From Chitinophagales bacterium (GTDB taxonomy: Bacteria; Bacteroidota; Bacteroidia; Chitinophagales; JANQFB01), in contig JANQFB010000350.1 in assembly GCA_028278085.1 (NCBI GenBank), positions 7,376 to 71,375 on the forward strand: DNA of 64,000 bases. The letters are read 5' to 3'. Below, in pieces: positions 15,684-63,798 of the stretch. Every line of letters starts with the position of its first letter. The stretch's first letter is position 1. The notes beneath the pieces are model-generated. The model worked only from the letters and a program-made list of their open reading frames with translations, did no database searches and had not been told where the DNA came from. The position numbers were made by a program, and so were the translations under genes.

Positions 15684-15941
15684 AAGGCAAGCTAACAACC
15701 GGACAAATATTTACAGGATAATGAGTTTCCCTTCACTGATCAATTGCTGATGGTCGCGGATGCGGAAAAAGTACATCCCTTTGGAGAGGCTCCCGGCCCG
15801 GATCACGAACCGGTTACCTTGTTTGACCGATTGCGCTTTCACCTGGTTACCGGAAGTGTCAAAAATTTCCAGGTCATAATGGTCCGGAGGGGTTCCTTTC
15901 AGCTCGATGACCGTATAGTCGGTAAAAGGATTGGGATAAAC
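15684..15941. repeat. Copy B of the ~260-bp duplicated segment
   Basis: See copy A. Upstream of the sorting domain the two proteins are unrelated in sequence. Confidence 0.9.
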
Positions 15942-49400: not shown

Positions 49401-49521
49401 GGCCATGAATGCCGGCCATCATCGGGAATCCTTGTCGTTGGATCATTTGCCTGCCGGCACCTATATCCTGACCGTTGACAAGGAGCATGTATCCCGGGCC
49501 TGCAGGCTGATAAAATTCTAG
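46435..49521 (+). CDS. Thermolysin-like (M4) metalloprotease with a C-terminal propeller-like region and a T9SS sorting domain
   Basis: 1028 aa with a signal peptide. Motifs: GHTHVKLQQYYRGIPV (propeptide), VAAHEMTHGV, NESIADIFG and GGVHINSGIPNHAF. The C-terminus is VLPNPTSGQLTIEF...GTYILTVDKEHVSRACRLIKF. Confidence 0.9.
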   Translation: MKNVKTRITLILVLSICCALPVMSQSQKTAKKPAKSKKIRPAGYTLPKITYKPATSPVYRQAGTMKVRTMPKLQRAYLAKDRSQLKALAVHRQPETGQVILLKTAGKAYDPAAMLTDRQVEDASIAYLESAAAVLGLENVKGSFDLSVHHRDKLGHTHVKLQQYYRGIPVYASEIMVHFRTNGEQVVNGRYEASPKGLNVSPTITARASEDLAKIHLGQRSRFIEKQPRIKGSLNLRETETELVILGQLYTKGKPELVWHHTLYPNFLERWEYFVNAHTGEITLFYDHTCSIDPDVATATDLNGDDRTINVYEEAGTYYMLDISRGMFNANQSDLPDDPVGAIWTIDAQNTDLDNIFQVSSPNNTWTDASAVSAHFNAGLTFEYFLNTHGRNSIDGNGGTIISVVNVTSNGNPMDNAYWNGQVMAYGNGDQAFTPLAGALDVAAHEMTHGVISKTANLEYMFQSGAINESIADIFGAMVDRDDWQLGEDICLQSVFPSGALRDLEDPHNGGTPDDFFYQPANMSEFQDLSSFQDNGGVHINSGIPNHAFFRYATAIGKDDAEDVYYKALTDYLTRSSQFIDLRIAVIQAATDLFGASSTQVTEARNAFDDVEIFDANGGNYEVDLSEHEGQDWILGYDINPANSHTFFISDITGSPTSFEALTTTVSKRKPSIPDAGGFALFVDTDNNIKIFDTDKDSTKEGYITDDEFWDNVAVSKDGSKLAGISIYVDTTIYVYDFGKEEWKEFTLYNPTFDSTITTGGPRYADALEWDYSGEFLIYDAYNVIENPGGEDITYWDVNFIKVWDNTADDFADGEVTKLFASLPEDVSIGNPIFSKNSPYIVAYDYWDDFSGDIFVQAANIENGEVGTIFSNDLLGNPSYSKNDDQMVFTTIMSSDTVIGIIDLKDNKIEPDGSTAQLIILAKWPVWYSKGHRVSVEELENLSGDPLIQVLPNPTSGQLTIEFQLEASRDVNITLYDIHGREMVHLARPAMNAGHHRESLSLDHLPAGTYILTVDKEHVSRACRLIKF

Positions 49522-49663: not shown

Positions 49664-50149
49664 ATGACCCCGAAAGAGTATAATCAATGCGTGGATCTCT
49701 ATGCAGACAGGGTCTATCGTTTCATCCTGAAAAATATCAAGGATCCAAACGATGCCAATGACATTGTTCAAAACGCATTCGAGATATTATGGAAAAAACA
49801 CAAGGAAGTGAATGTCGAAAAAGCCCGGCAATATTTATTTACCACAGCCTATCATAATATGATCGACTGGATCCGCAAGCATAAGCGAATAGAAAACCAT
49901 GCGGAAATTGAAGAATCCGCCGCTGTGGTCGAAACGGAATATACCGGGCTGAAAGAGATCCTGGCCAAAGCGCTCGAATTATTGCCGGAGGTACAGCGTA
50001 CGGTAGTCCTCCTGCGGGATTATGAAGGCTATTCCTACAAGGAGATCGCTAACATCACCAGCCTGAATGAATCGCAGGTGAAGGTTTATATCTACCGTGC
50101 CAGAACATTTTTAAAGAATCACATCGGAAACATCGCATACGTATTATGA
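49664..50149 (+). CDS. ECF (sigma-70 family) RNA polymerase sigma factor
   Basis: 161 aa. Region 2 is DANDIVQNAFEILWKK...YLFTTAYHNMIDWIRK. Region 4 is LPEVQRTVVLLRDYEGYSYKEIANITSLNESQVKVYIYRAR. Confidence 0.9.
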   Translation: MTPKEYNQCVDLYADRVYRFILKNIKDPNDANDIVQNAFEILWKKHKEVNVEKARQYLFTTAYHNMIDWIRKHKRIENHAEIEESAAVVETEYTGLKEILAKALELLPEVQRTVVLLRDYEGYSYKEIANITSLNESQVKVYIYRARTFLKNHIGNIAYVL

Positions 50150-50925
50150 AAATCACAAGGGAAAACTACGAAGCTTATTTTATCGATTTTATCGAAGGAA
50201 ACCTATCCGAAAAATATTTAGTGCCGTTGGAAGCCTTCCTGGAAGCCAATCCTGACCTGAGAGAAGAACTGAACCTGTTCGAGCAAACCATCCAGGCCCC
50301 GGATCCGCATATCCGATACGCGCATAAATCAAGCCTGAAAAAACCGACCACCGGTTTCTTCCGCTTGAATACCTACGTTATTCCGGCTTTCGCTGCAGCC
50401 GCCGCCATAGTGGTCGGTATCATTCTGATCAACAACTTCCCATTTACCGAAGCAGAGCAGGATCACATATCCTATCAAAACACGCCGGTAATCACTCCGG
50501 AAACGGCTGATATCAACCCTGTGGAAGCAGCTCTACCCGATACGGCCGTATCCGAACCGGTTGCCGAAATAAACGCAGAAAAACCATCGCCGGTATCTCC
50601 TCCAAAAGTCCGGGCAAAAAAAGCCCCGAAAACCGAAGATCCTCCCGTTCAACCCCAAAACGAACCGGCCGTTAACCTGATCGCAGAAAAGGTGGAACAG
50701 CCGGATCCGGAAGTTCAGCCGGTTCCCGAAACGCAACCCGAGCCCATCACCCATAAAGAAGAACCGGCCGTTGCCGAGGAAAAACTAGAACCTGTTGTCG
50801 TAACAGTTATCATGGACGCCCGGTCAAACTTCAGCAATGACAAAGACAGCAGCAATCCCCGGAAGGGACTTAAATTAAAAGGACTGATCGCTCAAGTGAA
50901 AAATCTAAGATCCATTTCCTTATAA
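50146..50925 (+). CDS. Putative anti-sigma factor (single TM, Pro/Glu-rich extracytoplasmic tail)
   Basis: It shows 4-nt start/stop coupling to the sigma gene. The N-terminus is YEAYFIDFIEGNLSEKYLVPLEAFLEANPDLREEL, followed by a TM (VIPAFAAAAAIVVGIILI) and then a PEP-rich region. Confidence 0.5.
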   Translation: MKITRENYEAYFIDFIEGNLSEKYLVPLEAFLEANPDLREELNLFEQTIQAPDPHIRYAHKSSLKKPTTGFFRLNTYVIPAFAAAAAIVVGIILINNFPFTEAEQDHISYQNTPVITPETADINPVEAALPDTAVSEPVAEINAEKPSPVSPPKVRAKKAPKTEDPPVQPQNEPAVNLIAEKVEQPDPEVQPVPETQPEPITHKEEPAVAEEKLEPVVVTVIMDARSNFSNDKDSSNPRKGLKLKGLIAQVKNLRSISL

Positions 50926-51002
50926 ACCCGATAACAGCAACATACGATATCAGGAAGCAAGGAAGTGCCATTTATAAAAATATTAAGCAAAATCTTTCAG
51001 GT

Positions 51003-52094
51003 ATGAAAAATATAGGAAAACAAGCAGGATTGATACTGGCCGCCGGTATATTGATGTGTTTTCAAGCACAGGCAGCCGATCTATTGAGAAAGTTGTCAGA
51101 TACCATTATCATCAACATAGGTGAGAACAAAATCATCATCCAGGTCGACAACCAGGAAGAACTGAAAAAACTCCAACAACACAGTATCGATACCATTATC
51201 GCATCCATCAATAAAGAGATCGATAATATCCGGGATGATCTACAAACCACTGTTGACACCTCTATTCACATCGATCCTACTACCATAGTCGAGGAATATA
51301 GCCTGCCCGGAAAAATAAATATCAAGCTTACCTACCAGGATGATGATGAAGCCTATGAAGAATCCGTAAACATCAGGATACCGAATATTGCCACGTTTAA
51401 GGTAGAATATACGGAAGATAGCGATGGGGATCTATCCAAGGTAGATATTGACTGGGGCAAAGACACTTGTGCAGAGCGCGAAGACAGGCTGGAGTTCGGT
51501 ATGGCCCTGGGATTGAACAACTGGCTCGACCGGACAACCGGAACTTTTCCCAATGGAGTGACCTACGACCTCAATCCCAGCCAGTCGAGATTTGTGAGCC
51601 TGAATTCCAGGTTCGAGTTTCAGGTCGGCAAAAGCCCGAGTCCGGCATTTATCTCCACCGGTTTGTCATTGACCTACAACAATTATATGTTCGATAAAAA
51701 AGTAAGGGTATTCGATGAAAACAATGTTACCGGCTTTTATATCGATACGGTGAACAACGTGCGGAAAAGTAAATTGAGGGCTACCTATATCAGTATCCCA
51801 TTGATGGTCAATTTCGAGTGGGATTGGAGAAACGGTCCGTTTAACAGGGGTTTCCATTTCGGATTTGGGGCAGATGTGGCCTACCGTGTAGGAAGCAAGG
51901 CCATCGCTAAGTTTTCCGGTGGCGGAAAAGAGAAGTTGGCCGGTAACTATAACTTAAATCCTGTCCAGTACGGCTTGATCGCCCAATTCGGTTATGGCCC
52001 CATTACTTTGTTCGGGAAATATAACCTGAGTCCCTTGTTCCTCGATGGAAAGGGGCCGGACGTCAATACCTTTAATATCGGATTTCTCCTTTAG
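51003..52094 (+). CDS. Outer-membrane beta-barrel protein (porin-family-like)
   Basis: 363 aa with a signal peptide. The C-terminal ~190 aa have alternating beta-strand character (YGLIAQFGYGPITLFGKYNLSP...TFNIGFLL). Confidence 0.5.
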   Translation: MKNIGKQAGLILAAGILMCFQAQAADLLRKLSDTIIINIGENKIIIQVDNQEELKKLQQHSIDTIIASINKEIDNIRDDLQTTVDTSIHIDPTTIVEEYSLPGKINIKLTYQDDDEAYEESVNIRIPNIATFKVEYTEDSDGDLSKVDIDWGKDTCAEREDRLEFGMALGLNNWLDRTTGTFPNGVTYDLNPSQSRFVSLNSRFEFQVGKSPSPAFISTGLSLTYNNYMFDKKVRVFDENNVTGFYIDTVNNVRKSKLRATYISIPLMVNFEWDWRNGPFNRGFHFGFGADVAYRVGSKAIAKFSGGGKEKLAGNYNLNPVQYGLIAQFGYGPITLFGKYNLSPLFLDGKGPDVNTFNIGFLL

Positions 52095-53389: not shown

Positions 53390-53655
53390 CGATTTTGCAT
53401 TTTGCGAAGGTAAACTAATGTAGCAGTAGAATTTCCTCCCATCCTTCGCCAGGACCAGGCCATAGCTATTAATCGGTACAGTTGGCTTAAATGAATAGCT
53501 ATATGAGACTATCAAATATAATAAATTTTAATCTGCCAGACAATTTATTGGGTGTGGAACTGATGAATCAGGCCCGGACCAGGTGGATTTTCCAAGGCTC
53601 CTAATTGGAAACGAGGGATGCCATGGCCGGCTAGCCGATACCAAAATTTTCTTCC

Positions 53656-53663
53656 TATATTTG
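53656..53663 (+). promoter_or_regulatory. Bacteroidota-type -7 box TATATTTG upstream of doxX
   Basis: It is an exact match to TAnnTTTG, 52 nt upstream of ATG 53715. Confidence 0.35.
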
Positions 53664-53714
53664 TTTCACTGCGGCTTTTCACCATCCGCACCTTTAAAAT
53701 CATTCGGTGCTACC

Positions 53715-54122
53715 ATGATCATGTTCAAAAATCTCTCGGCATATCAACAGCATGGTTTACTGATCTTGCGTGTGGGGATCGGCCTGATGTTTATGTATCA
53801 TGGCTACCCCAAACTGCTGGGCGGGCCGGATAAGTGGCTGATGCTGGGTGAAAAAATGGAATTTGTCGGTATCGCTTTTTTGCCGGTATTCTGGGGATTC
53901 ATGGCTGCCTTTGCAGAGTTTGTCGGAGGCCTTTGTTTTGCTATCGGATGGATGTTCCGTCCGGCTAGCGCATTACTGGCCATAACCATGATCGTGGCAT
54001 CGGCCTATCATCTGGGTTCGGGAGATGGTCTCGGTGGTTCTTCCCATGCTATCGAAGCCGGGATCTTGTTTATCAGCATGCTTTTCATCGGACCTGGAAA
54101 GTATAGCCTGGACAAAGGTTAA
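53715..54122 (+). CDS. DoxX family membrane protein
   Basis: ATG at 53715 gives MIMFKNLSAYQQHGLLILRVGIGLMFMYHGYPKL... with four TMs. A TATATTTG -7 box lies at 53656-53663. Confidence 0.8.
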   Translation: MIMFKNLSAYQQHGLLILRVGIGLMFMYHGYPKLLGGPDKWLMLGEKMEFVGIAFLPVFWGFMAAFAEFVGGLCFAIGWMFRPASALLAITMIVASAYHLGSGDGLGGSSHAIEAGILFISMLFIGPGKYSLDKG

Positions 54123-54145: not shown

Positions 54146-57097
54146 TTGGTATTCTCTGCTTTTTCGAACGGCTCGAAGCATTTCGGGAAAATAATTTTAG
54201 CATCCTTTTGCGCATTGCTGACCTGGCCGGTTATGGCGGGAAACGTAAGCAATGATCTCGCCGATTCACTCCTCTCACAGGCGGATTCGCTGGGCAATAT
54301 CCAACAACATGCACCGGCCGGTGATCTTTATGAACAGGCAGCCTTGATATACCAAAGCAACCGGGACCTGGAAGGTTACTGGCGCACGCGCTATCGTCAG
54401 GGCCAGAATCTTATCGTTTGGGGTAAACTGAAGGAAGGTATCTCCCTGCTTTCGGAAACAGCCAAGGGTATTCAGCCAGGGGACAGCATCGCCACAATGG
54501 CTTGGATCCTTCTGAATTGGGGTATTTCCCGGGTCTATTTCATACAGGAAGATTACGAAAATCTCCTCCGGGTCAGCGAAAAGACCCTCGATGTGTTTAA
54601 CCGTTCCGGGCTCGCTGTGTTCCGGGAGATCGGCTATTTGATCGGCAGCATCGGTCTCACGCATTATAATAGCGGAGATTATGAAAGATCCCTGGAATAC
54701 TTCCGGAAAGACCTCAATATTCAGCGCAAGCTACAGCGGCAGAATCTCATTCATACGGCAATTCCTTTACACAATATCGCCAATGTATACTGGGGTCTCG
54801 AACAATACGATTCCTCCGCTTATTATTTTAGCCGGACGCTTGACATTTACCGGCAGATCTATGCGCCGGGGCATTCGGCTATCCAGTCTGTTTACAATGG
54901 TTTGGGAAGCGTATACTGGGATAAGGGGGATAAAACCCGGTCGCTGGAATACTTCGATAGGGCGGCAGCATCCGATAACAAACGCAACGGATCATTGCTG
55001 GATGCCGGCGGAAATCAACAAGAATTGGGCAAGCAGGAACTGCAGGACCGGGAATATGATAAAGCGCTGGCCTATTTCAAGCAGGCGCTGGCATCCAGGA
55101 TGCAGGAAATGGGCTCCGATAATCCGTATACCAATAGCTGCTACAATTATATTGGTAAAACTTTTGCGCTCAACAACGACAATGACCAGGCGCTGCAATT
55201 CTATCAGAAAGCCATCACGGGCCTTCTTCCCGGTTTTGAAGATACCAGCATTACCGCCAATCCCATTTCGCTGGATTCCATGACCTCCGCACGCTTTTTG
55301 CTGGATGCTATGGTTGCTAAAACAACCCTCCTGGCGGAAAAATACGCTTTATCCGGTGTACGGGCGGATTTGGACCTGGCTTTTAAAACTGCGGAAACAA
55401 CCATCAAGCTGATCGACCATATGCGTAACAGCAATTTGGCCGAGGCTTCAAAATTGTTTTGGGTAGCCAAGGTGATGCCTTTTTACGAGGAGGCGATCCA
55501 TATCAATTATCAGCTATGGGCCCTTACCAACGATAAGCAATACATTGATCATGCCTTCCGGATCTCGGAAAAGGCCAAGGCTTTTCTGATGCTACAATCC
55601 CAAAAAGACCTGGAAGCAAAATCCATTGCAGGGATCCCCGATAGCCTGCTGGAAAAGGAACAGCAATTAAAATCGGAAATGGTCAAATACCGGAAATATA
55701 TTTACCGGGAATCGTTGAAATGTTTGAAAGCGGATCATAAACGGCTGGCCCTCTGGCAAGACAGGGTTTTTCGATTGAAAAGCAGCTACCGGCAGTGGAT
55801 CGAACAGGCGGAAAAAAGATACCCGGAATACTACCGGCTGAAATATAGCACGGCTGTTATCGGTATCGATGCCCTGCAAAAAAAACTTACCGATGCTCAT
55901 CCCGGAACCCTGGTGCTGGAGTATTTTATGGGAGCCCGACACCTTTACGTGATCGGCGTTTCTCCCGACCATCAATGGATCAAAGCATTGCCTATACCTG
56001 ATAACCTTTTTCAGCAGTTTAAGCATTTCCGGAGGTCTTATTCCGATCCGGATTTTTTTCTGGCTCAACCCGACAGCAGCTACCGGACATTTACCCGCAA
56101 CGGCCGGCTGCTTTATCGTAAATTGTTGGAGCCGGTGTTGGCTCAGGGGGTACCGGCATGGGAAAAGATCATTATCATACCCGATGGTTGGTTGACTTAT
56201 TTACCCTTTGAGCTATTGCTCGACTCCATGGTTCCTGCTACTCCCAGAAACTACAAAAAGCTGCCCTACCTGGTGAAAAAGCGGGGGATCTCCTATGCTT
56301 ATTCCGCCTCCTTGCTATTCAACCCGGTGGAGAGAAAAGTAAATCCCCCCAAAAGCCGGCAATTAGTCGGATTTGCACCGGCATACCCTACTGCTGCTCC
56401 TTTCGATCCTAGCAGGCAATTATCGCCGCTCAAATATAATGACCATGAGCTCGCGGCCGCCGAAAATACCTACTTCGGAAAAATATTTACGGGTGCAGAA
56501 GCGACAAAGGAACAATTCGACCGTTATGCACCCTATTATTCGATCCTTCACCTGGCCATGCATGCGATCGTCAACAATGAAGAACCGATGTATTCCAAAC
56601 TGGTCTTTGCGGGTGCGGCAGATAGTTTGTCTGCCTTATATACCTATGATCTTTACCAACATAAGCTTGCCGCCGACCTGGTTATCCTCAGCGCCTGCAA
56701 TACCGGGCTCGGGAAGCTACAAAAAGGGGAAGGACTGATCAGCCTGGCCAGGGGATTTACCTATGCCGGCGCCGGATCGGTCATCATGAGCTTATGGCCG
56801 GTGGATGATTATGCCACCCCGGTCATTTTTAAAACGTTTTATCAATTACTGTCAACGGGAGCCAGGAAGCCTTCCGCCCTTCGACGAGCCAAACTGCATT
56901 ACCTGGAACAAGCGGACCCTGCCGCTGCGCATCCGTTTTATTGGGGAGGATTTGCTTTTATCGGAGACACTAGCCCCATACAAAGTGGTCCGGATACCAC
57001 AGATCAGCAAGGGAAACTATTCTTACTGGCACTCATCCTGGGTTTGATGGTTTACAGCGCTAAAATATTTAAGAAACGTTCAGATCTTCCGGAGTAA
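54146..57097 (+). CDS. TPR-repeat CHAT-domain (caspase-like) protease with an N-terminal signal and a C-terminal TM anchor
   Basis: 983 aa. About 8 TPRs are followed by a CHAT domain with the His context ILHLAMHA and the Cys context LVILSACNTGLGK, then SLWPVDD. The C-terminus is LFLLALILGLMVYSAKIF. It has a TTG start. Confidence 0.85.
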   Translation: MVFSAFSNGSKHFGKIILASFCALLTWPVMAGNVSNDLADSLLSQADSLGNIQQHAPAGDLYEQAALIYQSNRDLEGYWRTRYRQGQNLIVWGKLKEGISLLSETAKGIQPGDSIATMAWILLNWGISRVYFIQEDYENLLRVSEKTLDVFNRSGLAVFREIGYLIGSIGLTHYNSGDYERSLEYFRKDLNIQRKLQRQNLIHTAIPLHNIANVYWGLEQYDSSAYYFSRTLDIYRQIYAPGHSAIQSVYNGLGSVYWDKGDKTRSLEYFDRAAASDNKRNGSLLDAGGNQQELGKQELQDREYDKALAYFKQALASRMQEMGSDNPYTNSCYNYIGKTFALNNDNDQALQFYQKAITGLLPGFEDTSITANPISLDSMTSARFLLDAMVAKTTLLAEKYALSGVRADLDLAFKTAETTIKLIDHMRNSNLAEASKLFWVAKVMPFYEEAIHINYQLWALTNDKQYIDHAFRISEKAKAFLMLQSQKDLEAKSIAGIPDSLLEKEQQLKSEMVKYRKYIYRESLKCLKADHKRLALWQDRVFRLKSSYRQWIEQAEKRYPEYYRLKYSTAVIGIDALQKKLTDAHPGTLVLEYFMGARHLYVIGVSPDHQWIKALPIPDNLFQQFKHFRRSYSDPDFFLAQPDSSYRTFTRNGRLLYRKLLEPVLAQGVPAWEKIIIIPDGWLTYLPFELLLDSMVPATPRNYKKLPYLVKKRGISYAYSASLLFNPVERKVNPPKSRQLVGFAPAYPTAAPFDPSRQLSPLKYNDHELAAAENTYFGKIFTGAEATKEQFDRYAPYYSILHLAMHAIVNNEEPMYSKLVFAGAADSLSALYTYDLYQHKLAADLVILSACNTGLGKLQKGEGLISLARGFTYAGAGSVIMSLWPVDDYATPVIFKTFYQLLSTGARKPSALRRAKLHYLEQADPAAAHPFYWGGFAFIGDTSPIQSGPDTTDQQGKLFLLALILGLMVYSAKIFKKRSDLPE

Positions 57098-57820
57098 TTG
57101 CAGTGCCTCCTTGTAACGGTATGCTTCCGGATCTTCGGTGATGGCTTCCAGGCTCGTTCGCAGCGCTTCCGGTTTTCCCTGTTTCAAATAACAAAGGGCT
57201 ACATACCATCGGGCTTGTTCCCGGTAATCATTGTCGGTTTGGAGCACTTTTTGAAAGGCTACTACGGCGGCTGAGGATGAATCCATGGATAATAAACATT
57301 GACCGGCGTAAAAGCTGCCTAAATAGGACATTCCCTTCCCGGCATTGGAGATCTCCCTGAATTTTGGCAGGGCGGCAGGATAATCGCCTTCGTCATAAGC
57401 TTGGATCGCTTCCTGCCAGATCCGGTTAAAGGCCGGGTTATCCTGCCGGAGATTCATCGGACTCCGGTAGACCTCATGGTAAGTCGCAAAGAAAGTTTGA
57501 TGATCTGCCTTATCCGTAGGCCAAAAACCGATATAAGCCAGGCAAACCAGGATGATACTGGCGGCCAGAGGCAGCAAATACCGCCATGGATTAGTCCCTT
57601 TCTTTTCGTGTTCGATTTCCTCGTGGATCGATCGCAGTTCCTGCCTGAGATCGTGAGCTCCGGCAATGTCGATGATCTGCAACGAGTCTTTTACCCGGTC
57701 TACCGCTTCGGAAAGTTCCGGATCGGCAGCCATTTGTTCTTCAAATGACGCTCTTTCCTTAGCTGGCAATTCACCGGCCAGGTACCTTTCGATTTGTTCG
57801 ATAGAGTAGTTCATCGTCAT
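57080..57820 (-). CDS. Putative anti-sigma factor with an extracytoplasmic TPR domain
   Basis: 246 aa, starting 5 nt downstream of the ECF sigma gene. The N-terminus is IEQIERYLAGELPAKERASFEEQMAADPELSEAV, followed by a TM (LLPLAASIILVCLAYIGFW) and C-terminal TPR-like repeats. Confidence 0.55.
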   Translation of the reverse strand: MTMNYSIEQIERYLAGELPAKERASFEEQMAADPELSEAVDRVKDSLQIIDIAGAHDLRQELRSIHEEIEHEKKGTNPWRYLLPLAASIILVCLAYIGFWPTDKADHQTFFATYHEVYRSPMNLRQDNPAFNRIWQEAIQAYDEGDYPAALPKFREISNAGKGMSYLGSFYAGQCLLSMDSSSAAVVAFQKVLQTDNDYREQARWYVALCYLKQGKPEALRTSLEAITEDPEAYRYKEALQLLRKI

Positions 57821-57825
57821 TGGAT

Positions 57826-58437
57826 TTATCCGGTTAACAAATCGCGAACAGCTTTATTTTCCTGTACCAATTCTTTCAACCGCGACAGACATTTGAATTT
57901 CTTGTTCCGGGCGATCTGGGCGCTTTGATAGCCCATGGCCTGTGCGATCTCATCCATCGAATATTGCCGGTAATAGGCCAGCAAGAGCACTTCTTTGCAG
58001 GTTGACCCGACCCGGTCGAATAATTCGAGCACCTGGTGCTGCTGCTCCATAAGCATCATTGAGATATAAGGGTCCTCTTCATGTATGCGTTCCAAACTGG
58101 CTAATCTTTCCCTTTGACTACCGGCTTGCTTCAGCTTTTTTAACCACAGATGCCGACAGATGGCATATAAATAGGTTTTAATGCTGCTCTCGGCATTGAA
58201 CTTTCGGGATTTGATATTCTTATATAAAATGATGATCCCGTCCTGGAACACATCTGCTGCATCGTCAGCATTCCCGCTATTGTTTACCACATACCGATCG
58301 ACCATCTGTTGATATTTCAGATACAGTTGTTTGAGATAAAACCGTTCCCGTTCTCCGCCGGCCAATAAGCCATCGATGAGTTGCTGGTCCGAATACGTTG
58401 ATCCCCGATCCGACATATGGTTTTGGCTTTCCGCCAA
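57826..58437 (-). CDS. ECF (sigma-70 family) RNA polymerase sigma factor
   Basis: Region 2 is DAADVFQDGIIILYKN...YLYAICRHLWLKKLK. Region 4 is CKEVLLLAYYRQYSMDEIAQAMGYQSAQIARNKKFKCLSRL. It has a TTG start at 58437, with an alternative ATG at 58416. Confidence 0.85.
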   Translation of the reverse strand: MAESQNHMSDRGSTYSDQQLIDGLLAGGERERFYLKQLYLKYQQMVDRYVVNNSGNADDAADVFQDGIIILYKNIKSRKFNAESSIKTYLYAICRHLWLKKLKQAGSQRERLASLERIHEEDPYISMMLMEQQHQVLELFDRVGSTCKEVLLLAYYRQYSMDEIAQAMGYQSAQIARNKKFKCLSRLKELVQENKAVRDLLTG

Positions 58438-58584
58438 AATACAATAAAAACATCATTATATGGCCCGCGGTTCATCCGGCAATTTTATCCATTAGTTACA
58501 TCTTCCTTGGAATTCGTAACCGGTCTTACCGAAAAAATGAAGGATTTAATCGGGCGAGGTTGAAAGATGAGCACCCCGGTATAT

Positions 58585-59070
58585 TCAGGAACCAAAAACT
58601 TCCTCGAATTGCTGTTGTACGACAGGCATATCCACCATTTTTGGATTCAGGCAAATTTGCTGCGTTTCATTCCTGATCAGGATGATTGATCGGGTTGGAT
58701 AAGCCGGGCAACTGTGGATCAGACTTTTATATAAATCATGGTCGACAACCCAAGAGGAATTTTCCCGGGGCATTAACATCTCACTGAATTTTTGCCGGGC
58801 GACTTTTCGGCGTGATCGGGCGAAAACCACGTGTATCTCTATGTCCTTGTCCGCATAGTTTTGCTGGAAATATTTAAGTACATGGTTTATTCCTCCAATG
58901 CAATTAACGCAATCTTTGGGTTCGACAACAATTAACAGCGCATTGTTTTGAGAAGGAGCTGATACAATCGTATTATCGGTTGCCTTATCATTAGTGCCTT
59001 CAACATCCCAATTAACAGGGTTACAGGCAATAGCCAAACAACTGATCAATAGGATTAAAGCTTTATGCAT
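58585..59070 (-). CDS. Lipoprotein with a CxxC motif in a thioredoxin-like context
   Basis: ATG at 59070 gives MHKALILLISCLAIACN (lipobox). LLIVVEPKDCVNCIGG resembles a beta-strand followed by CxxC at a helix start. The start overlaps the upstream gene by 8 nt. Confidence 0.4.
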   Translation of the reverse strand: MHKALILLISCLAIACNPVNWDVEGTNDKATDNTIVSAPSQNNALLIVVEPKDCVNCIGGINHVLKYFQQNYADKDIEIHVVFARSRRKVARQKFSEMLMPRENSSWVVDHDLYKSLIHSCPAYPTRSIILIRNETQQICLNPKMVDMPVVQQQFEEVFGS

Positions 59071-60184
59071 TATCCTCAATCGCATGGCTGATGAGATAAA
59101 TATCCTCTCCGGATTCTTTAAGATATACCAAATGGGTTGGCGTAATATAAAAATTGCTGATCTTTTCGCTGGCCTCGATCTCGATCAGTGGGATCTCCTT
59201 CAATAATGCTGCAGTAGAAGTGGTGTACCAACGAATGCCGTAAGTTTTCTCGTTTATGTTTTGTATGACGCAAAACCAATTATTTCCTCTTTTGCTAAAG
59301 GATGTAATTTGATAATTCGGTTCAATGGTCAATGCCATGGATTCAGTGGGATGTGCATAAATGGAATTTTGGTAACTGATCCATAAGCTATCCCTGTTAT
59401 TATAAAAGCTACCATATATTATTTCAGCAGGATTTTCATAGGGCTGGTTCGGTAAGTTAACGGGTATATATCGGTTTGTTTTTTCGAGGATTTTGCCATC
59501 ACTACCAGGTGTTAAGCCAAAGAATCCTTTATTGTCAGCTTCATGATCTACACGGGATAATATAAAATGGCTGGTTGTGATCAACTCACCTTTCCAATAT
59601 TGCATACCCCCCATAGTATTGACAAATTGAGGCTTCTGTATGATGGGATCGTTGATAAATTTGATGTCCATAACCTTAAAGGCATGGTCTAGTTTTATTA
59701 AGAATGGTGAAGTATTCCATATACTTGCTGTTTTTCCTTCATAATCACCTAAATGTGGACTACTAAGCCTGTAATACAGGTAAAAACCTGGTGCATCATA
59801 GGCTAAATTTTGCAATTGAAATAATGGGATAGGAGGATCATCTTTAAAATCTTCAAAATCCATGTACGTTCTACTAGGATCGATCGGCTTGATATATCGG
59901 TCGATCAGATATTGCTTGTTCAATTGGTTTTCATCAAATAAGTTTTCGAGTTTCCCAGTTGATGGGTTGAGTGATAGGATATGTTTTTGATCGGCTAAAA
60001 GGATATATTGTGATCCTTGCCAATCATGGATAATTTTTGGTAAGCGATTGAAAATGAATTTTTCCTCTATAATTTTTATTCTTTTACCCGGCGACAAACT
60101 TAAATTATCATCGGGTAACCGGCATACATGCAGTAAAACCGCCAATAACAGAAAATAGGGAACTTGCCTTAATCTATGGAACAT
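59063..60184 (-). CDS. Hypothetical exported protein (possibly beta-propeller)
   Basis: 373 aa with a hydrophobic N-terminus (VPYFLLLAVLLHVC) and no recognised catalytic motif. Confidence 0.5.
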   Translation of the reverse strand: MFHRLRQVPYFLLLAVLLHVCRLPDDNLSLSPGKRIKIIEEKFIFNRLPKIIHDWQGSQYILLADQKHILSLNPSTGKLENLFDENQLNKQYLIDRYIKPIDPSRTYMDFEDFKDDPPIPLFQLQNLAYDAPGFYLYYRLSSPHLGDYEGKTASIWNTSPFLIKLDHAFKVMDIKFINDPIIQKPQFVNTMGGMQYWKGELITTSHFILSRVDHEADNKGFFGLTPGSDGKILEKTNRYIPVNLPNQPYENPAEIIYGSFYNNRDSLWISYQNSIYAHPTESMALTIEPNYQITSFSKRGNNWFCVIQNINEKTYGIRWYTTSTAALLKEIPLIEIEASEKISNFYITPTHLVYLKESGEDIYLISHAIEDNA

Positions 60185-60235
60185 TTCGATGATACTTCAC
60201 CTCCAAATTCAGGAACTTATATCATGCAAAATGAG

Positions 60236-60691
60236 CTAATTCCTTATTTCAAAGGTTGCTTTCGTGCCATTAAAATTCCCCTGACAAGTTTGAATAATCC
60301 CTTCATCAATATCAATGTTTTTAGCACTGACTATTTCGGGAAAAGCTGGTTTTACCTTAATGATTAGCGCTTCCTCGATCGGAGTAGACTTTATTGACGC
60401 CTCACCGGTAACTATAATTAGACAATGTGTTGGATCATCTATACAAAAGCTGCCGTCATTGCATTCCTGATAAATTCCACGGATTACTTTAACATCAATA
60501 ATTTCTTTATGACTTGAGGCATAGATACTTGCCCATAGCGCTTCATCCGCCAACCTGATAATCTCTTCCGTATCATTGGCGTCATAATTATACTGAACTG
60601 GTTCTCTGAGTTCTTTAGGTTGAATAGGTTCGACTTTACTGCATCCTGCTAATACTGCAATGAGAAATAATAAACTAACAATCTGTTTCAT
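60236..60691 (-). CDS. Small lipoprotein
   Basis: 151 aa. The lipobox is LFLIAVLAGCSK. Confidence 0.5.
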   Translation of the reverse strand: MKQIVSLLFLIAVLAGCSKVEPIQPKELREPVQYNYDANDTEEIIRLADEALWASIYASSHKEIIDVKVIRGIYQECNDGSFCIDDPTHCLIIVTGEASIKSTPIEEALIIKVKPAFPEIVSAKNIDIDEGIIQTCQGNFNGTKATFEIRN

Positions 60692-60948: not shown

Positions 60949-63798
60949 ATGAAGAATATTATCCTTGCACTCTTTTTATTATTGAGTACTTCACCTATCA
61001 CCGAAGCACAAACCTGGGTCAGGGTGGATACCCTGCCATGTGCCTGTAATACCGCAAAGACATCTATCCTGTATGATAACGAGTTGTATGTGGGCACAAC
61101 GCCCTATATCACCATTTGGGACAGCATTTCCTGGGACACCCTGAAAGTGGGTAATATTATCCTCAATGCTATGGCCGATTTCAACGGGGAATTATATGTC
61201 GCCGGTGATTTTGATAGTATCGGTGGTATTGCTGCAGACAATATCGCCAAATGGGATGGCCAGAACTGGTCGCCAGTCGGTGGAGGTGTTAGCGCTGAAG
61301 TGTTAACCCTCGAAGTTTACGGGTCCCGCTTATATGCCGGCGGCCATTTTACGGATGCCTATAATTTGCCGCTGGCCCTGGATACCACCTTCGAATCCAA
61401 AATTGCCGCATGGGACGGTGTGAATTGGCATGGCCTGGTGTATGAAACCAACTCCGCCTCTCCTTTTTATAACTGGTCCGGTTTATTCCCCACCTCCGGC
61501 TATGTTTCTTCCCTCCATAGCTTTGAAAATGAGCTTTATATCGGGGGTATTTTCGGATCATCGATCGGTGGCGGAGGCCTCAACAATATGGCTACCTATA
61601 ATACGGTTGAATTCAGCGCTGTAGGTTTGGGTGCGAATGGAAATGTGAATGCCGCCACAGACTATTTGGGAGAGATCTACTTCGGCGGAAATTTTACCAC
61701 CATGAACGGATCGGGTGCCAATTACATCGGCGCTTATGATGATTTCGGCGGCTTCTATGCCCTGGGAAGCGGAATGGATATGCCCGTACATACCCTGGCC
61801 ATCCATGATAATGATCTGTATGCCGGCGGTGATTTTTTTAACGCCGGGGGAACCCTGGTGAATCATGTGGCTCGTTGGGATGGGTTTGCCTGGAAAAAGA
61901 TCGGGGCCGGTATGAACGGAAATGTCCAGTCGCTGATCACCTACAACAATGATCTGTATGCCATCGGCGGATTTAATACGGCAGATGGAAATATGGTGGA
62001 AGGCATTGCCAAATTGATCGATTGTGATCCGGTGGCCACTTTCACATTTTCGGATTCCTTATGTGTAAATACAAATGTTGTTTTTAACAACACCAGTTCG
62101 GACACCACCTCCTACGATTTCACCTGGATGGACGGTTCGTTTACCTTTTCTCATGGAAAAGATACCGCCAACAGGATCTTTGACGCCGTTGGCGTATATG
62201 ACATTCACCTGATCGCTGCTAACGGGATCTGCACCGATACCATGACCAGATCCTATACGGTAAATCCGGAAATTATTGTTAATGCCGGCAAAGATACCTC
62301 CCTTTGCCTGGGGGATACGGTTAAGATCGGTAATGTTCCGCTATTCACCGGCGGATCCCCGGTCGGGCAAACGGTTTTCTATTGGAACCACGGGCAGACG
62401 CTTCATGATTCCCTGTCCCTGGAACCCTTTGCCTTCCCTGCCACTACCACCAACTACAGGGCTACGGTCATGGACATGAACGGATGTACGGGTATCGATT
62501 ATGTGCAGGTGGAAGTATTTGACAAACCCCAGGTTTCCGCCGGCTTACCGGATACGATCTGTTACGGCGATTCCGTAGAGATCGGTGGATTCCCGACGGT
62601 TATCGGGGGTACGCCACCCTATGATATCCATTGGTCACCAGCCAGCCATGTTACCGATCCCAATGCCCAGTACCCTAAAGCTTTTCCCCCCACAACCACG
62701 GTATTCGAAGTTTTCGTGCAGGATAACTCCACCTGCACCGGTATGGATAGTGTGGAAGTATTCGTATGGCCGGAATTAATGGCCGATCCGGGGAATGATA
62801 CCATGATCTGTAAAGGGGATACCATTAGTATCGGCGGTAATCCTTCAGCCGTTGGTGGCGCCGGTTCCGGTTATGATTATTATTGGAATCCGATTGTCCA
62901 TATGGATAATCCCCATGTGGCAAATCCAAAGGTAAATCCTCAGGTCAGTACATTTTATTCACTTACAGTTGTTGATGGATTCGGTTGTGACCATGAAGCC
63001 GAGATACATGTCCAGATCGATCCTGTAGTCGCGGATGCCGGTGGTGGATTTGATAAACAGATCGAAGCGTGTTTTGGGGCGATAACTCATCTCGGTGGAG
63101 CTCCGACAGCTTCGGAAGGGATCATGCCCTTTGCCTATAATTGGACCCCGGTGCAGCCGCTTGACTTCCCCAATGTTTCCAATCCGGAAGTGACAACCGA
63201 TAAGAGCCGTATGTTTTGGCTGACCGTTACCGATAGCCTCGGGTGCAAGGCTAAGGATAGTGTCATGCTTACCGTGGATTCTTTACCGGAAGCCTATTTT
63301 AGTTATGAACAGGTTGATGCGGAGGTTATGTTCGAGGATAGCTCCGAACGAACAGACCACTGGCTGTGGTTATTTGGCGACGGGGATTCTTCGAACCTCC
63401 AGCATCCGGTACATGAATATCTTACCGCCGGAACCTATGAGGTGATTTTATTCGCCAGTAACAGTTGTGGTACCGATATCCGGAAAGATACGGTCGAAAT
63501 CTTGACGAATCACCAGTCATCGATAACACTCGATCCTGGCCTACAAGTATATCCGAATCCTTATGCCGGATCGGTTAATATTTCTTTTTCCCTGAACCAC
63601 CAGCGGCAGGTAAGCCTGCAAATGTTGGATATGACCGGAAAACAAGTAAAAATTCTTGCCGATGGCGTAGCGGTCGCCGGTACACAAAATTATACCTTTA
63701 GCGCTGCGGCCATGGGGCTTCCGGCCGGCATATACTTGCTCCACCTGACCATCAACGGCCATGTTTTTACCCGAAAGCTGGTAGAGGTCAATCGTTAA
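60949..63798 (+). CDS. Large secreted protein: Kelch-like propeller, PKD domains, five Ig-like Cys modules, T9SS sorting domain
   Basis: 949 aa. The propeller repeats match those of 34990..36975 (GG.F...GG..AN.IA.WDG..W). About 5 copies of G.D..IC.GD...IGG.P...GG..PY...W.P...v.dpn...P...P..TT.Y.V.V.D..GC...D.V.V.V follow. The PKD signature is LFGDGDSSNLQHPVHEYLTAGTYEV. The C-terminus is VYPNPYAGSVNISF...GIYLLHLTINGHVFTRKLVEVNR. Confidence 0.85.
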   Translation: MKNIILALFLLLSTSPITEAQTWVRVDTLPCACNTAKTSILYDNELYVGTTPYITIWDSISWDTLKVGNIILNAMADFNGELYVAGDFDSIGGIAADNIAKWDGQNWSPVGGGVSAEVLTLEVYGSRLYAGGHFTDAYNLPLALDTTFESKIAAWDGVNWHGLVYETNSASPFYNWSGLFPTSGYVSSLHSFENELYIGGIFGSSIGGGGLNNMATYNTVEFSAVGLGANGNVNAATDYLGEIYFGGNFTTMNGSGANYIGAYDDFGGFYALGSGMDMPVHTLAIHDNDLYAGGDFFNAGGTLVNHVARWDGFAWKKIGAGMNGNVQSLITYNNDLYAIGGFNTADGNMVEGIAKLIDCDPVATFTFSDSLCVNTNVVFNNTSSDTTSYDFTWMDGSFTFSHGKDTANRIFDAVGVYDIHLIAANGICTDTMTRSYTVNPEIIVNAGKDTSLCLGDTVKIGNVPLFTGGSPVGQTVFYWNHGQTLHDSLSLEPFAFPATTTNYRATVMDMNGCTGIDYVQVEVFDKPQVSAGLPDTICYGDSVEIGGFPTVIGGTPPYDIHWSPASHVTDPNAQYPKAFPPTTTVFEVFVQDNSTCTGMDSVEVFVWPELMADPGNDTMICKGDTISIGGNPSAVGGAGSGYDYYWNPIVHMDNPHVANPKVNPQVSTFYSLTVVDGFGCDHEAEIHVQIDPVVADAGGGFDKQIEACFGAITHLGGAPTASEGIMPFAYNWTPVQPLDFPNVSNPEVTTDKSRMFWLTVTDSLGCKAKDSVMLTVDSLPEAYFSYEQVDAEVMFEDSSERTDHWLWLFGDGDSSNLQHPVHEYLTAGTYEVILFASNSCGTDIRKDTVEILTNHQSSITLDPGLQVYPNPYAGSVNISFSLNHQRQVSLQMLDMTGKQVKILADGVAVAGTQNYTFSAAAMGLPAGIYLLHLTINGHVFTRKLVEVNR

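What the first reader, a model, noticed from the sequence alone, without database searches (positions are those of the whole stretch)
54146..58437. Exported TPR-CHAT protease converging on, and overlapping, an ECF sigma / TPR anti-sigma pair
The 983-aa protein has an N-terminal signal-like segment, about 8 TPRs, a CHAT domain with intact His (HLAMHA) and Cys (LSACNTG) contexts, and a single C-terminal TM. This predicts an extracytoplasmic, membrane-tethered caspase-like protease. Its last 18 nt (57080-57097) overlap the 3' end of a convergent anti-sigma-like gene. That gene's extracytoplasmic part is also TPR, and it is co-transcribed with an ECF sigma factor (5-nt gap). CHAT proteases act as effectors in several recently described signalling and defence systems, for example the TPR-CHAT partner of type III-E CRISPR. 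No such partners are present here. One hypothesis is regulated proteolysis of the anti-sigma TPR domain by the CHAT protease, which would be a non-canonical ECF activation route. The adjacency may instead be coincidental.
Basis: partly seen in the sequence, partly recalled or inferred. Interest (0 to 1): 0.55.

Follow-up and report, generated by a model that had tools for sequence, protein, structure and literature searches.

The report
Caspase-like protease paired with sigma switch
A membrane-tethered, caspase-like protease gene sits tail-to-tail with a sigma factor/anti-sigma factor pair, and this trio recurs as a unit across the phylum Bacteroidota, so the protease probably helps control that gene switch from outside the cytoplasm, although no cleavage has been shown.

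Summary
It describes one copy of a conserved three-gene module, not a chance adjacency.

The window encodes three genes:
- a 983-aa TPR-CHAT protein (signal peptide, about 8 TPRs, CHAT with His806/Cys851, C-terminal TM);
- a convergent 246-aa single-pass anti-sigma-like protein with a periplasmic 3-TPR domain;
- its upstream ECF sigma.

Linkage from the CHAT side (80 species-level genomes): ECF genes are about 9-fold enriched in the 2 kb downstream of the CHAT gene, and 39 of 86 CHAT genes have this anti-sigma family within 3 kb.

Linkage from the anti-sigma side (metagenome loci sampled by a signature peptide only): 44/51 have a sigma directly upstream. 20/21 with adequate flanks have a CHAT gene within 3 kb.

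No fourth gene is conserved. The catalytic dyad is kept in 86/86 homologs. Periplasmic topology is a family trait, with a 7-17-residue tether to the membrane.

The closest precedents are M. xanthus DdvA (anti-sigma fused to a periplasmic TPR-CHAT) and craspase Csx29-Csx30-sigma.

Best reading: a trans-acting periplasmic CHAT protease that controls the anti-sigma, as a "split DdvA" analogue. Cleavage is inferred, not shown. I found no description of this Bacteroidota module in the searchable literature. The signal and the regulon are unknown.

The parts
54146..57097 (+). TPR-CHAT gene (983 aa, TTG start). Layout: signal peptide, about 8 TPRs, helical middle region, CHAT domain, short tether, C-terminal TM, basic tail.
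   Evidence: ORF. Same gene call in the public contig. Pfam CHAT E 1.7e-56 plus TPR families. AlphaFold2 pLDDT 83.9. Foldseek matches Csx29, DdvA and separase.
54146..54238 (+). Predicted signal peptide (residues 1-31, ...WPVMA|GN).
   Evidence: Sequence. An N-terminal hydrophobic segment is present in about 90% of 86 homologs, with classic signal-peptide shapes. No dedicated signal-peptide predictor was available.
54251..55225 (+). TPR superhelix (residues about 36-360).
   Evidence: Pfam TPR_12, TPR_10, TPR_1, TPR_2 and others. 17 helices in the model.
56096..56968 (+). CHAT caspase-like domain (Pfam residues 651-941). Catalytic His806 is at 56561-56563 and Cys851 at 56696-56698.
   Evidence: H806 and C851 are invariant in 24/24 and 86/86 homologs. 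The weak sequence match to DdvA (8ROT) covers the region with the His and Cys motifs.
57017..57094 (+). C-terminal TM anchor (residues about 958-975) plus cytoplasmic tail KKRSDLPE. It lies about 16 residues after the end of the CHAT domain.
   Evidence: Hydropathy and the model helix 951-979. About 72% of homologs have a TM plus Lys/Arg tail. No sorting motif precedes it. Tether median 11 residues, range 7-17, n=77.
57080..57820 (-). Single-pass anti-sigma-like gene (246 aa). Cytoplasmic three-helix N-terminal domain with no Cys, so non-zinc. TM at residues 82-100 (57521-57577). Juxtamembrane FFATYHEVY segment (57464-57493). Periplasmic 3-TPR domain (57086-57436).
   Evidence: AlphaFold2 pLDDT 79.9, above 90 in the TPR domain. 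Foldseek best matches are the YbgF/CpoB TPR and PcrH/SycD. The same family lies directly downstream of an ECF sigma in 42/47 and 44/51 loci.
57826..58437 (-). ECF sigma factor (203 aa from the TTG start; 196 aa from the ATG at 58416).
   Evidence: TIGR02937 at 66.7 bits is above its cutoff. Pfam Sigma70_r2. Module sigmas in other loci score 40-133 bits against it, whereas most non-module ECFs score below 30.
57080..57097 (.). 18-nt tail-to-tail overlap of the CHAT and anti-sigma coding regions.
   Evidence: 11 of the 24 convergent genome loci with a middle ORF (window excluded) overlap by 4-31 nt, and the rest are 2-529 nt apart. Most convergent metagenome loci are 0-20 nt apart.
58511..58521 (-). 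GGTTACGAATT, a candidate promoter element about 75-95 nt upstream of the sigma start. Low confidence.
   Evidence: It is the only exact copy in the window, and near-matches are not enriched. The same 11-mer lies upstream of the sigma in L058. Function is untested.

Best explanation
The three genes form one signalling module.

Shown or strongly supported:
- The ECF sigma is co-transcribed with a single-pass anti-sigma. The anti-sigma's N-terminal helical domain faces the cytoplasm and its 3-TPR domain faces the periplasm.
- The TPR-CHAT protein is exported by a signal peptide. Its own C-terminal TM holds it at the periplasmic face of the inner membrane, with the catalytically intact caspase-like domain only 7-17 residues from the bilayer.
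- The three genes are inherited together across Bacteroidota.

Inferred:
- The TPR-CHAT protein is the input device. Its TPR superhelix senses a periplasmic protein or peptide cue, which activates the CHAT domain.
- The activated domain cuts the anti-sigma in the roughly 25-residue stretch between its TM and its TPR domain. This is a site-1 cleavage acting in trans.
- A site-2 protease and cytoplasmic proteases then release the sigma, as in canonical regulated intramembrane proteolysis.

This would be a two-polypeptide analogue of the mechanism proposed for DdvA. The activating signal and the sigma's regulon are unknown.
For: Linkage from the CHAT side:
- ECF density is 1.79 per 10 kb in the 2 kb downstream of CHAT genes, against about 0.2 in the distal flanks.
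- 26/74 CHAT genes have a convergent ECF within 2 kb.
- 39/86 have the anti-sigma family within 3 kb.

Linkage from the anti-sigma side, sampled without reference to CHAT:
- 4/4 homologs are next to a CHAT gene.
- In 80 metagenome loci found by a signature peptide, 44/51 have a sigma immediately upstream and 23/40 have a convergent CHAT within 300 bp.
- 20/21 with good flanks have a CHAT gene within 3 kb.

Other module features:
- Only these three families are conserved in 39 module loci.
- Adjacency survives changes of orientation: 25 convergent, 7 divergent, 8 co-directional. That points to a protein-level link.
- The catalytic His and Cys are kept in 86/86 homologs.

Topology:
- About 90% of homologs have a signal-peptide-like N-terminus, and about 72% have a C-terminal TM plus basic tail.
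- The tether has a median of 11 residues.
- The anti-sigma model shows an N-terminal helical bundle, a TM, a linker and a confident periplasmic TPR domain.

Structure and fusions:
- The model matches Csx29, DdvA (8ROT, E 7e-14) and separases over 800-970 alignment columns. DdvA is the only solved structure hit by the CHAT region at the sequence level.
- P0065 is a natural fusion of an anti-sigma-like N-terminus, a TM and TPR-CHAT. It follows an ECF-like sigma and lacks the C-terminal TM.

Promoter evidence:
- Sigma-upstream motifs are absent upstream of CHAT genes. This is weak evidence that CHAT is an input rather than a regulon output.

Precedents:
- DdvA (PMC11506125).
- Csx29, Csx30 and CASP-sigma (PMC10028731).
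Against: - No cleavage has been demonstrated here. Even for DdvA the CHAT-as-site-1-protease step is a proposal: dyad mutants had no phenotype in unperturbed cells and the signal is unknown.
- About half of the CHAT homologs surveyed lack an adjacent sigma/anti-sigma pair, so the protease family has other roles or distant partners.
- 9 of 39 module-linked CHAT proteins lack the C-terminal TM.
- The anti-sigma's outer domain resembles peptide-binding TPR modules (YbgF, PcrH/SycD). That fits ligand sensing as well as it fits being a substrate.
- The juxtamembrane motif is only moderately conserved: the strict form occurs in 19/115.
- In 6-8 loci the CHAT gene is co-directional with the sigma operon and may be co-transcribed with it.
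- No complex prediction could be run.
Confidence: 0.5

Rival explanations
1. Non-proteolytic or indirect coupling. The CHAT protease processes some other periplasmic substrate. The anti-sigma's peptide-binding-type TPR domain senses either the product peptides or the occupancy or state of the CHAT protein. The sigma therefore reports on, or is gated by, CHAT activity without the anti-sigma being cut by CHAT.
For: - The anti-sigma ectodomain is a compact 3-TPR module. Its best matches are peptide-binding TPRs such as PcrH/SycD, CHIP and Hop, and YbgF.
- Many CHAT homologs exist without an adjacent pair, so other substrates are likely.
- The strong two-way linkage is explained equally well by this reading.
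Against: - The fused forms (DdvA; P0065) put the protease and the anti-sigma in one chain. The DdvA structure places the active site opposite the linker of the partner protomer.
- The invariant dyad and the very short tether place the active site next to the anti-sigma's juxtamembrane segment.
Confidence: 0.27
2. The CHAT protein is an output of the system. The ECF sigma drives its expression, and it acts as an envelope protease effector, for example in quality control or defence, rather than as a regulator of the anti-sigma.
For: - ECF sigmas often control adjacent genes.
- In 6-8 loci the CHAT gene lies directly downstream on the same strand, 31-199 nt away, and could be co-transcribed.
- No other conserved candidate output gene is present.
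Against: - About 60% of modules are tail-to-tail, which gives no shared promoter region.
- Motifs found upstream of the sigma genes are absent upstream of CHAT genes: 0-1 of 67, and none in the window or in four Maribacter/Zobellia loci.
- In the window the CHAT gene starts 23 nt after a DoxX gene.
- All of these points are weak, because the promoter motif itself is unverified.
Confidence: 0.15
3. The link is at the RNA level. Convergent, overlapping transcription of the CHAT gene and the sigma operon causes antisense or collision-based mutual repression, and the proteins do not interact.
For: - The tail-to-tail genes abut or overlap by 4-31 nt in many loci, leaving no room for terminators.
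- The window has no terminator-like signal beyond chance.
Against: - The trio is equally maintained in divergent and co-directional layouts. Some convergent loci have gaps of 100-500 nt.
- RNA interference would not explain the conserved matching topology, the invariant dyad or the fused forms.
Confidence: 0.05
4. The adjacency is coincidental. Bacteroidota carry many ECF pairs, and one happens to lie next to a CHAT gene.
For: Bacteroidetes average about 22 ECFs per genome (PMC7826278). The window itself has a second, unrelated ECF pair 4 kb away.
Against: - About 9-fold local enrichment over the same loci's distal flanks.
- A specific anti-sigma family and a related sigma group are involved.
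- 20/21 linkage in an independent sample.
Confidence: 0.01

Closest known systems
[quoted passage not shown]
   Same: - ECF sigma, then a single-pass anti-sigma with a cytoplasmic sigma-binding domain.
- A periplasmic TPR-CHAT with an intact His-Cys dyad, proposed to act as site-1 protease on a juxtamembrane linker.
- The window's CHAT model matches 8ROT (Foldseek E 7e-14). 8ROT is the only solved structure hit by the CHAT region at the sequence level.
   Different: - Here the anti-sigma and the protease are separate genes, usually convergent. The protease has its own signal peptide and C-terminal TM anchor.
- The anti-sigma has no zinc-binding Cys/His motif. Its ectodomain is a small generic 3-TPR module, not the DdvA scaffold.
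- There are no CBASS or CRISPR genes nearby and no PADLOC hits.
- The phylum is Bacteroidota. The DdvA authors found fused forms only in Myxococcota and one Comamonas.
- The resemblance is analogy of architecture, not demonstrated orthology.
Type III-E CRISPR craspase: Cas7-11/gRAMP, Csx29 (TPR-CHAT), Csx30 and CASP-sigma (PMC10028731)
   Same: - A TPR-CHAT protease cleaves an inhibitor of an ECF-like sigma factor to switch on transcription.
- Csx29 structures are the best Foldseek matches to the window's model (8EEY_B, E 4e-17).
   Different: - Craspase is cytoplasmic and RNA-activated through Cas7-11.
- The window has no gRAMP-sized gene, no CRISPR array and no defence-model hit.
- The window's protease is exported and membrane-anchored, and its partner is a transmembrane anti-sigma unrelated to Csx30.
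Canonical regulated intramembrane proteolysis of anti-sigma factors (DegS-RseA-RseP with sigmaE; PrsW-RsiW-RasP with sigmaW). Cited from established knowledge and as summarised.
   Same: A single-pass anti-sigma holds an ECF sigma. A membrane-tethered periplasmic site-1 protease is proposed to remove the ectodomain in response to an envelope signal.
   Different: - The site-1 candidate is a caspase-fold cysteine protease with a TPR sensor. It is not a PDZ serine protease (DegS) or a PrsW-type metalloprotease.
- It is genetically linked to its anti-sigma.
- Cleavage is not demonstrated.
ECF54 group (Actinobacteria), noted for CHAT, subtilase and carboxypeptidase genes in its neighbourhood (PMC8999054; PMC7826278)
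   Same: An ECF sigma group with a conserved CHAT-domain neighbour, with proteolytic control proposed.
   Different: - ECF54 is actinobacterial and is described as lacking any anti-sigma factor.
- The window's module is from Bacteroidota and always includes a dedicated transmembrane anti-sigma.
CalpL-CalpT-CalpS (type III CRISPR SAVED-Lon protease, anti-sigma and ECF-like sigma; bioRxiv 10.1101/2024.05.08.593097, abstract only)
   Same: The same tripartite logic: a signal-activated protease, an anti-sigma substrate and an ECF-like sigma.
   Different: It uses a Lon-type protease, is cytoplasmic and is activated by cyclic oligoadenylate. The components are unrelated.

Membership tests
CHAT domain, caspase-hemoglobinase fold cysteine peptidase (Pfam PF12770) | Match to the family model above the curated threshold | tested here: met
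   192.2 bits against a cutoff of 24, full-length domain 2-289/289.
CHAT domain, caspase-hemoglobinase fold cysteine peptidase (Pfam PF12770) | Catalytic His-Cys dyad retained | tested here: met
   H806 and C851 are invariant in 24/24 and 86/86 homologs. The weak sequence match to DdvA (8ROT) covers the region with the His and Cys motifs.
CHAT domain, caspase-hemoglobinase fold cysteine peptidase (Pfam PF12770) | Proteolytic activity | not testable with these tools
   Needs biochemistry.
Separase/craspase/DdvA-type TPR-CHAT architecture | N-terminal TPR superhelix packed against a C-terminal CHAT domain in one chain | tested here: met
   AlphaFold2 model with pTM 0.82. Foldseek alignments of 800-970 columns to Csx29, DdvA and separase, E 4e-17 to 1e-9.
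DdvA-type anti-sigma (fused anti-sigma, TM and TPR-CHAT) | Cytoplasmic anti-sigma domain and CHAT in the same polypeptide | tested here: not met
   They are separate genes on opposite strands. The split arrangement holds in all 39 module loci. Fused forms exist elsewhere, such as P0065.
DdvA-type anti-sigma (fused anti-sigma, TM and TPR-CHAT) | Zinc-associated anti-sigma domain (His/Cys ligands) | tested here: not met
   The cytoplasmic part of the window's anti-sigma (residues 1-81) contains no Cys.
DdvA-type anti-sigma (fused anti-sigma, TM and TPR-CHAT) | Periplasmic location of TPR-CHAT | tested here: inconclusive
   Predicted from the signal peptide, the C-terminal TM and the positive-inside tail, and conserved in the family. 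No dedicated predictor or experiment was available.
DdvA-type anti-sigma (fused anti-sigma, TM and TPR-CHAT) | Controls an adjacent CBASS/CRISPR defence island | tested here: not met
   No PADLOC hits in the trio or its neighbours. No arrays or large Cas-like ORFs. No conserved fourth gene.
Type III-E craspase system | Cas7-11/gRAMP, Csx30 and a CRISPR array in the locus, with a cytoplasmic protease | tested here: not met
   In addition, the protease has a signal peptide and a TM.
ECF (group IV) sigma-70 factor | Sigma-2 and sigma-4 regions only, with a match to the ECF model above cutoff | tested here: met
   TIGR02937 at 66.7 bits against 42.9 over residues 35-189. Pfam Sigma70_r2, with weak r4.
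ECF (group IV) sigma-70 factor | Assignment to a numbered ECF group (ECF Hub classification) | not testable with these tools
   The group HMMs and the supplementary group descriptions are not available. The sigma is below cutoff for the Bacteroidetes subfamilies TIGR02985 and NF058625. It is not ECF54, which is actinobacterial and has no anti-sigma.
Class I-like single-pass anti-sigma factor | Encoded directly downstream of, and co-oriented with, an ECF sigma | tested here: met
   5-11 nt gap in the window. 42/47 and 44/51 family members have this layout. P0149 is a natural sigma-anti-sigma fusion.
Class I-like single-pass anti-sigma factor | N-terminal helical anti-sigma domain that binds the sigma | tested here: inconclusive
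   The model shows three N-terminal helices, pLDDT 70-89. The conserved YLxGxL...E...FE..L..D..L motif is present. The NCBIfam anti-sigma model matches at only 28.9 bits against a cutoff of 100. Binding is untested.
Regulated intramembrane proteolysis cascade | Site-1 cleavage of the anti-sigma ectodomain followed by site-2 cleavage | not testable with these tools
   Inferred from the architecture and the DdvA precedent only.

The most novel reading that the evidence does not exclude
Bacteroidota carry a very large, uncharacterised family of three-gene signalling modules in which a periplasmic, inner-membrane-tethered caspase-like (TPR-CHAT) protease acts in trans as the dedicated site-1 protease of its own TPR-ectodomain anti-sigma factor. 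Caspase-fold proteolysis would then be a general, phylum-wide route of ECF sigma activation, not a peculiarity of one myxobacterial defence island.
Probability: 0.45. Interest if true: 0.8.

Novelty: new variant of a known kind. Interest (0 to 1): 0.66.

Why it matters
**Site-1 proteases.** ECF sigma factors are the third major mode of bacterial signal transduction, and Bacteroidota carry the most per genome. For most anti-sigma factors the site-1 protease and the signal are unknown.

**Extending DdvA.** The only characterised anti-sigma linked to a CHAT protease, DdvA, was reported as taxonomically narrow, and its autoproteolysis step is still unproven because protease and substrate are one chain. 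This module places the same logic in two separate proteins, in a large and ecologically important phylum that includes cultured genera such as Maribacter, Zobellia, Aquimarina, Pedobacter and Roseivirga.
- The exhaustive search found 5,042 anti-sigma clusters at E <= 1e-10.
- At least 592 CHAT loci occur in species-representative genomes.

**Testability.** The split form makes "CHAT as site-1 protease" directly testable in trans, with purified protease plus ectodomain, or with deletions and dyad mutants.

**Wider theme.** It also adds to a recurring pattern of protease, anti-sigma and ECF sigma triads (DegS/RseA, Csx29/Csx30, CalpL/CalpT, DdvA).

Tried and rejected
1. **Orthology with the first trio found (L002).** Pairwise BLAST found no similarity to the window's sigma/anti-sigma pair. 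HMM-based family searches were needed.

2. **Shared ECF promoter.**
   - Exact dyad enumeration in 25 loci gave nothing above the AT-rich background.
   - With 104 sigma upstream regions, a few dyads were enriched: GTTAA..TAAC, TGTTT..TTAC and TTAGT..TGTT. They are only borderline significant after multiple-testing correction and may reflect related genomes.
   - The window's GGTTACGAATT is unique to the sigma upstream region.
   - No regulon could be inferred.

3. **Searches that failed or fell short.**
   - The search for related loci with the anti-sigma alignments failed because no stretch was conserved enough. I replaced it with a degenerate-DNA scan for WYLALAYLK.
   - The word-indexed homolog search is insensitive for the anti-sigma, giving 2 and 8 hits. 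The exhaustive HMMER search was used instead.

4. **A literal "split DdvA".**
   - The anti-sigma ectodomain matches generic 3-TPR modules, not the DdvA scaffold.
   - Neither the window's anti-sigma nor the N-terminus of P0065 hits DdvA by sequence.
   - The relationship is therefore stated as analogy.

5. **Other rejected readings.**
   - A cleavable C-terminal sorting signal (PEP-CTERM or GlyGly-CTERM-like): no conserved motif precedes the TM.
   - A defence-system reading: no PADLOC, CRISPR or gRAMP evidence.
   - ECF54 membership.

6. **Juxtamembrane cleavage motif.** It is only moderately conserved (19/115 for the strict form), so I kept it as a lead, not as evidence.

7. **Source organism.** The public records carry no organism or product names for these proteins.

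Full report
**1. Observation**

The three ORFs exist exactly as described:
- 54146..57097 (+), 983 aa, TTG start.
- 57080..57820 (-), 246 aa.
- 57826..58437 (-), 203 aa.

The first two overlap tail-to-tail by 18 nt, and 5 nt separate the second and third. An independent gene call on the same public contig gives 983, 244 and 196 aa.

Family searches gave the following:
- CHAT covers residues 651-941 (E 1.7e-56), and several TPR families cover residues 64-359.
- The 203-aa protein passes the curated cutoff of the ECF model TIGR02937.
- The 246-aa protein has one TM (residues 82-100), weak TPR hits in its C-terminal half and a sub-threshold match to an NCBIfam anti-sigma model.
- The HLAMHA and LSACNTG contexts are present. 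His806 and Cys851 are invariant in a 24-member alignment and in all 86 CHAT homologs collected later.

**2. Structure and topology**

An AlphaFold2 model of the CHAT protein built on the family alignment is confident (pLDDT 83.9, pTM 0.82). It shows, in order:
- an N-terminal hydrophobic helix;
- 17 helices between residues 36 and 360, about 8 TPRs;
- a second helical block;
- the alpha/beta CHAT domain;
- a terminal helix.

Foldseek against the PDB returns the craspase protease Csx29 (E 4e-17), DdvA (8ROT, E 7e-14) and separases, with alignments of 800-970 columns. At the sequence level the CHAT region hits only 8ROT/8RW5. That match covers the region with the His and Cys motifs.

Across 86 homologs:
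- About 90% have a signal-peptide-like N-terminus.
- About 72% have a C-terminal TM followed by a short Lys/Arg tail.
- The N-termini look like ordinary signal peptides.
- No sorting motif precedes the TM.
- The tether between the conserved end of the CHAT domain and the TM has a median of 11 residues, range 7-17, n=77.

By the positive-inside rule the bulk of the protein is periplasmic, with the protease domain held against the inner membrane.

The anti-sigma model (pLDDT 79.9) shows three N-terminal helices, a TM, a short juxtamembrane helix and a confident seven-helix TPR domain. The best structural matches for that domain are generic, peptide-binding-type 3-TPR modules: YbgF/CpoB at TM 0.8 and rmsd 1.9 Å, and PcrH/SycD. 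It does not match the DdvA scaffold.

**3. Is the adjacency real?**

I collected 80 loci encoding CHAT homologs (25-34% identity) from species-representative genomes. Almost all are Bacteroidota. I then mapped ECF genes with an HMM built in-session.

From the CHAT side:
- ECF density is 1.79 per 10 kb in the first 2 kb downstream of the CHAT gene, against 0.08-0.39 per 10 kb at 2-10 kb in the same loci.
- 26 of 74 CHAT genes have a convergent ECF within 2 kb.
- The gene in between belongs to the same family as the window's anti-sigma: about 245 aa, a TM near residues 80-100, phmmer E-values from 1e-26 to 1e-6.
- Counting all orientations, 39 of 86 CHAT genes have this family within 3 kb.
- 42 of 47 anti-sigma genes have an ECF sigma directly upstream.
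- Layouts relative to CHAT are 25 convergent, 7 divergent, 8 co-directional and 6 more than 3 kb away.
- Module sigmas score 40-133 bits against the window's sigma, while most non-module ECFs score below 30 (all).
- Clustering all neighbours in 39 module loci shows only these three families conserved. No other family is shared by more than 4 loci.

From the anti-sigma side, sampled without reference to CHAT:
- Four anti-sigma homologs found by sequence alone all lie beside a CHAT gene.
- A metagenome scan for DNA encoding the family's WYLALAYLK signature gave 80 loci, of which 69 contain a family member.
- 44 of 51 with enough upstream sequence have an ECF sigma immediately upstream.
- 23 of 40 with at least 1.2 kb downstream have a convergent CHAT gene within 300 bp.
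- 20 of 21 with good flanks on both sides have a CHAT gene within 3 kb.

The family is large. An exhaustive HMMER search found 5,042 cluster representatives at E <= 1e-10, and the best 150 listed are full-length matches of about 245-260 aa or duplicated or fused variants. Coincidence is excluded.

**4. What it most likely does**

The trio has no conserved fourth gene, and adjacency survives changes of gene orientation. That argues for a protein-level relationship rather than a transcriptional artefact of the overlap.

Both the anti-sigma ectodomain and the TPR-CHAT bulk face the periplasm. The protease has an invariant dyad and sits on a very short tether, so its active site should lie close to the roughly 25-residue stretch between the anti-sigma's TM and its TPR domain.

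Two published systems provide the logic:
- DdvA of M. xanthus is a transmembrane anti-sigma whose periplasmic TPR-CHAT is proposed to clip the juxtamembrane linker in trans within a dimer. RseP cleavage follows, and the RseP step was shown experimentally.
- The type III-E protease Csx29 cleaves Csx30, which inhibits an ECF-like sigma.

One natural fusion also turned up. P0065 (1,202 aa) has a duplicated N-terminal motif of the same type, then a TM, TPRs and CHAT. An ECF-like sigma precedes it, and it has no C-terminal TM. The split proteases therefore carry their own anchor, while the fused ones do not need one.

I conclude that the TPR-CHAT protein is most likely the signal-sensing site-1 protease of the adjacent anti-sigma. 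My confidence in this specific mechanism is about 0.5, and above 0.9 that the three genes form one functional unit.

Which gene drives which remains weakly resolved. Sigma-upstream motifs are not found upstream of CHAT genes. That mildly favours CHAT as an input rather than a regulon output, but the motifs themselves are unverified. In a minority of loci the CHAT gene is probably co-transcribed with the sigma operon.

**5. Rivals**

- **Indirect coupling.** The anti-sigma's TPR domain senses products or occupancy of the protease. The peptide-binding-type fold of that domain fits this reading, as do the many CHAT homologs without an adjacent pair.
- **CHAT as effector output.** The prevalent tail-to-tail layout and the promoter results count against this, but it is not excluded.
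- **Antisense interference at the overlap.** This cannot be the core link, because the trio also occurs in non-overlapping and non-convergent layouts.
- **Chance.** Refuted.

**6. Comparison with known systems**

- It works like DdvA but fails DdvA's defining features. The polypeptides are separate, there is no zinc anti-sigma domain, the ectodomain is different and there is no defence island.
- It is not a craspase system. There is no Cas7-11, Csx30 or array, and the protease is exported.
- It is not ECF54, the actinobacterial, anti-sigma-less group previously noted for CHAT neighbours.
- I could not assign the sigma to a numbered ECF group. The group descriptions in the supplement of the reclassification paper are not held here, so the neighbourhood may be listed there.
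- Seven full-text searches found no description of this Bacteroidota module.

**7. Verdict**

The finding is best described as a new, split variant of the TPR-CHAT/anti-sigma/ECF theme, widespread in Bacteroidota and experimentally uncharacterised. The signal, the substrate and the regulon are all unknown. The decisive experiments are simple because protease and putative substrate are separate proteins.

Noticed in passing
window 49664-52094 (+): A second, unrelated ECF sigma (161 aa) overlaps by 4 nt a Pro/Glu-rich anti-sigma-like gene (259 aa). A 363-aa OMP_b-brl_2 outer-membrane beta-barrel gene follows. This sigma is 28% identical to the module sigma.
   Followed up: partly
window 58585-60691 (-): Three ORFs (166 aa, 373 aa and a 151-aa lipoprotein) have no Pfam, NCBIfam or PADLOC family. 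They lie in a low-GC stretch (0.34-0.40, against 0.47-0.50 around it), directly upstream of the sigma on the same strand. They are not conserved in other module loci.
   Followed up: partly
window 11954-14548, 15711-18617, 41841-45665, 46435-49521, 60949-63798: The window is dense in type IX secretion cargo genes (Por_Secre_tail). These include two thermolysin-like M4 metalloproteases, a DUF7619 protein and a PKD-repeat protein. A DUF7619 protein also lies next to the CHAT gene in L088/L089.
   Followed up: no
window 53583-54122 (+): A DoxX-family membrane protein gene ends 23 nt before the TTG start of the CHAT gene, so the two may be co-transcribed in this genome. DoxX is not conserved next to CHAT elsewhere.
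   Followed up: partly
P0122, P0130 and similar proteins; P0149: Some members of the anti-sigma family are about 500 aa, with the cytoplasmic sigma-binding motif present in three tandem copies before the TM and TPR domain. P0149 is a single-chain sigma-anti-sigma fusion whose sigma half resembles the window's sigma.
   Followed up: partly
L212 4368-8609 (protein P0065): A DdvA-style fused protein (anti-sigma-like N-terminus, TM, TPRs and CHAT; 1,202 aa; no C-terminal TM) is preceded by a divergent ECF-like sigma. It sits on an unnamed 190-kb contig with GC 0.50-0.54. Fused forms may be more widespread than the Myxococcota plus Comamonas distribution reported for DdvA.
   Followed up: partly
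L013 2782-9988; L034; L022, L024, L026, L027, L033: In L013 and L034 one CHAT gene has ECF sigma genes on both sides. In L013 both are full sigma/anti-sigma pairs. In L034 no anti-sigma ORF was found beside the downstream sigma. Several genomes carry tandem or multiple CHAT paralogs, which suggests paralogous expansion and possibly shared proteases.
   Followed up: no
L025 12853-12879, L031 13258-13285, L033 12917-12944, L041 13612-13639 (all - strand): A direct dyad, TGTTAAATTAG-N-TGTTAAC, is conserved immediately upstream of the module sigma in four Maribacter/Zobellia-type loci and occurs nowhere else in those 22-kb loci. It is a candidate autoregulatory promoter or operator.
   Followed up: partly
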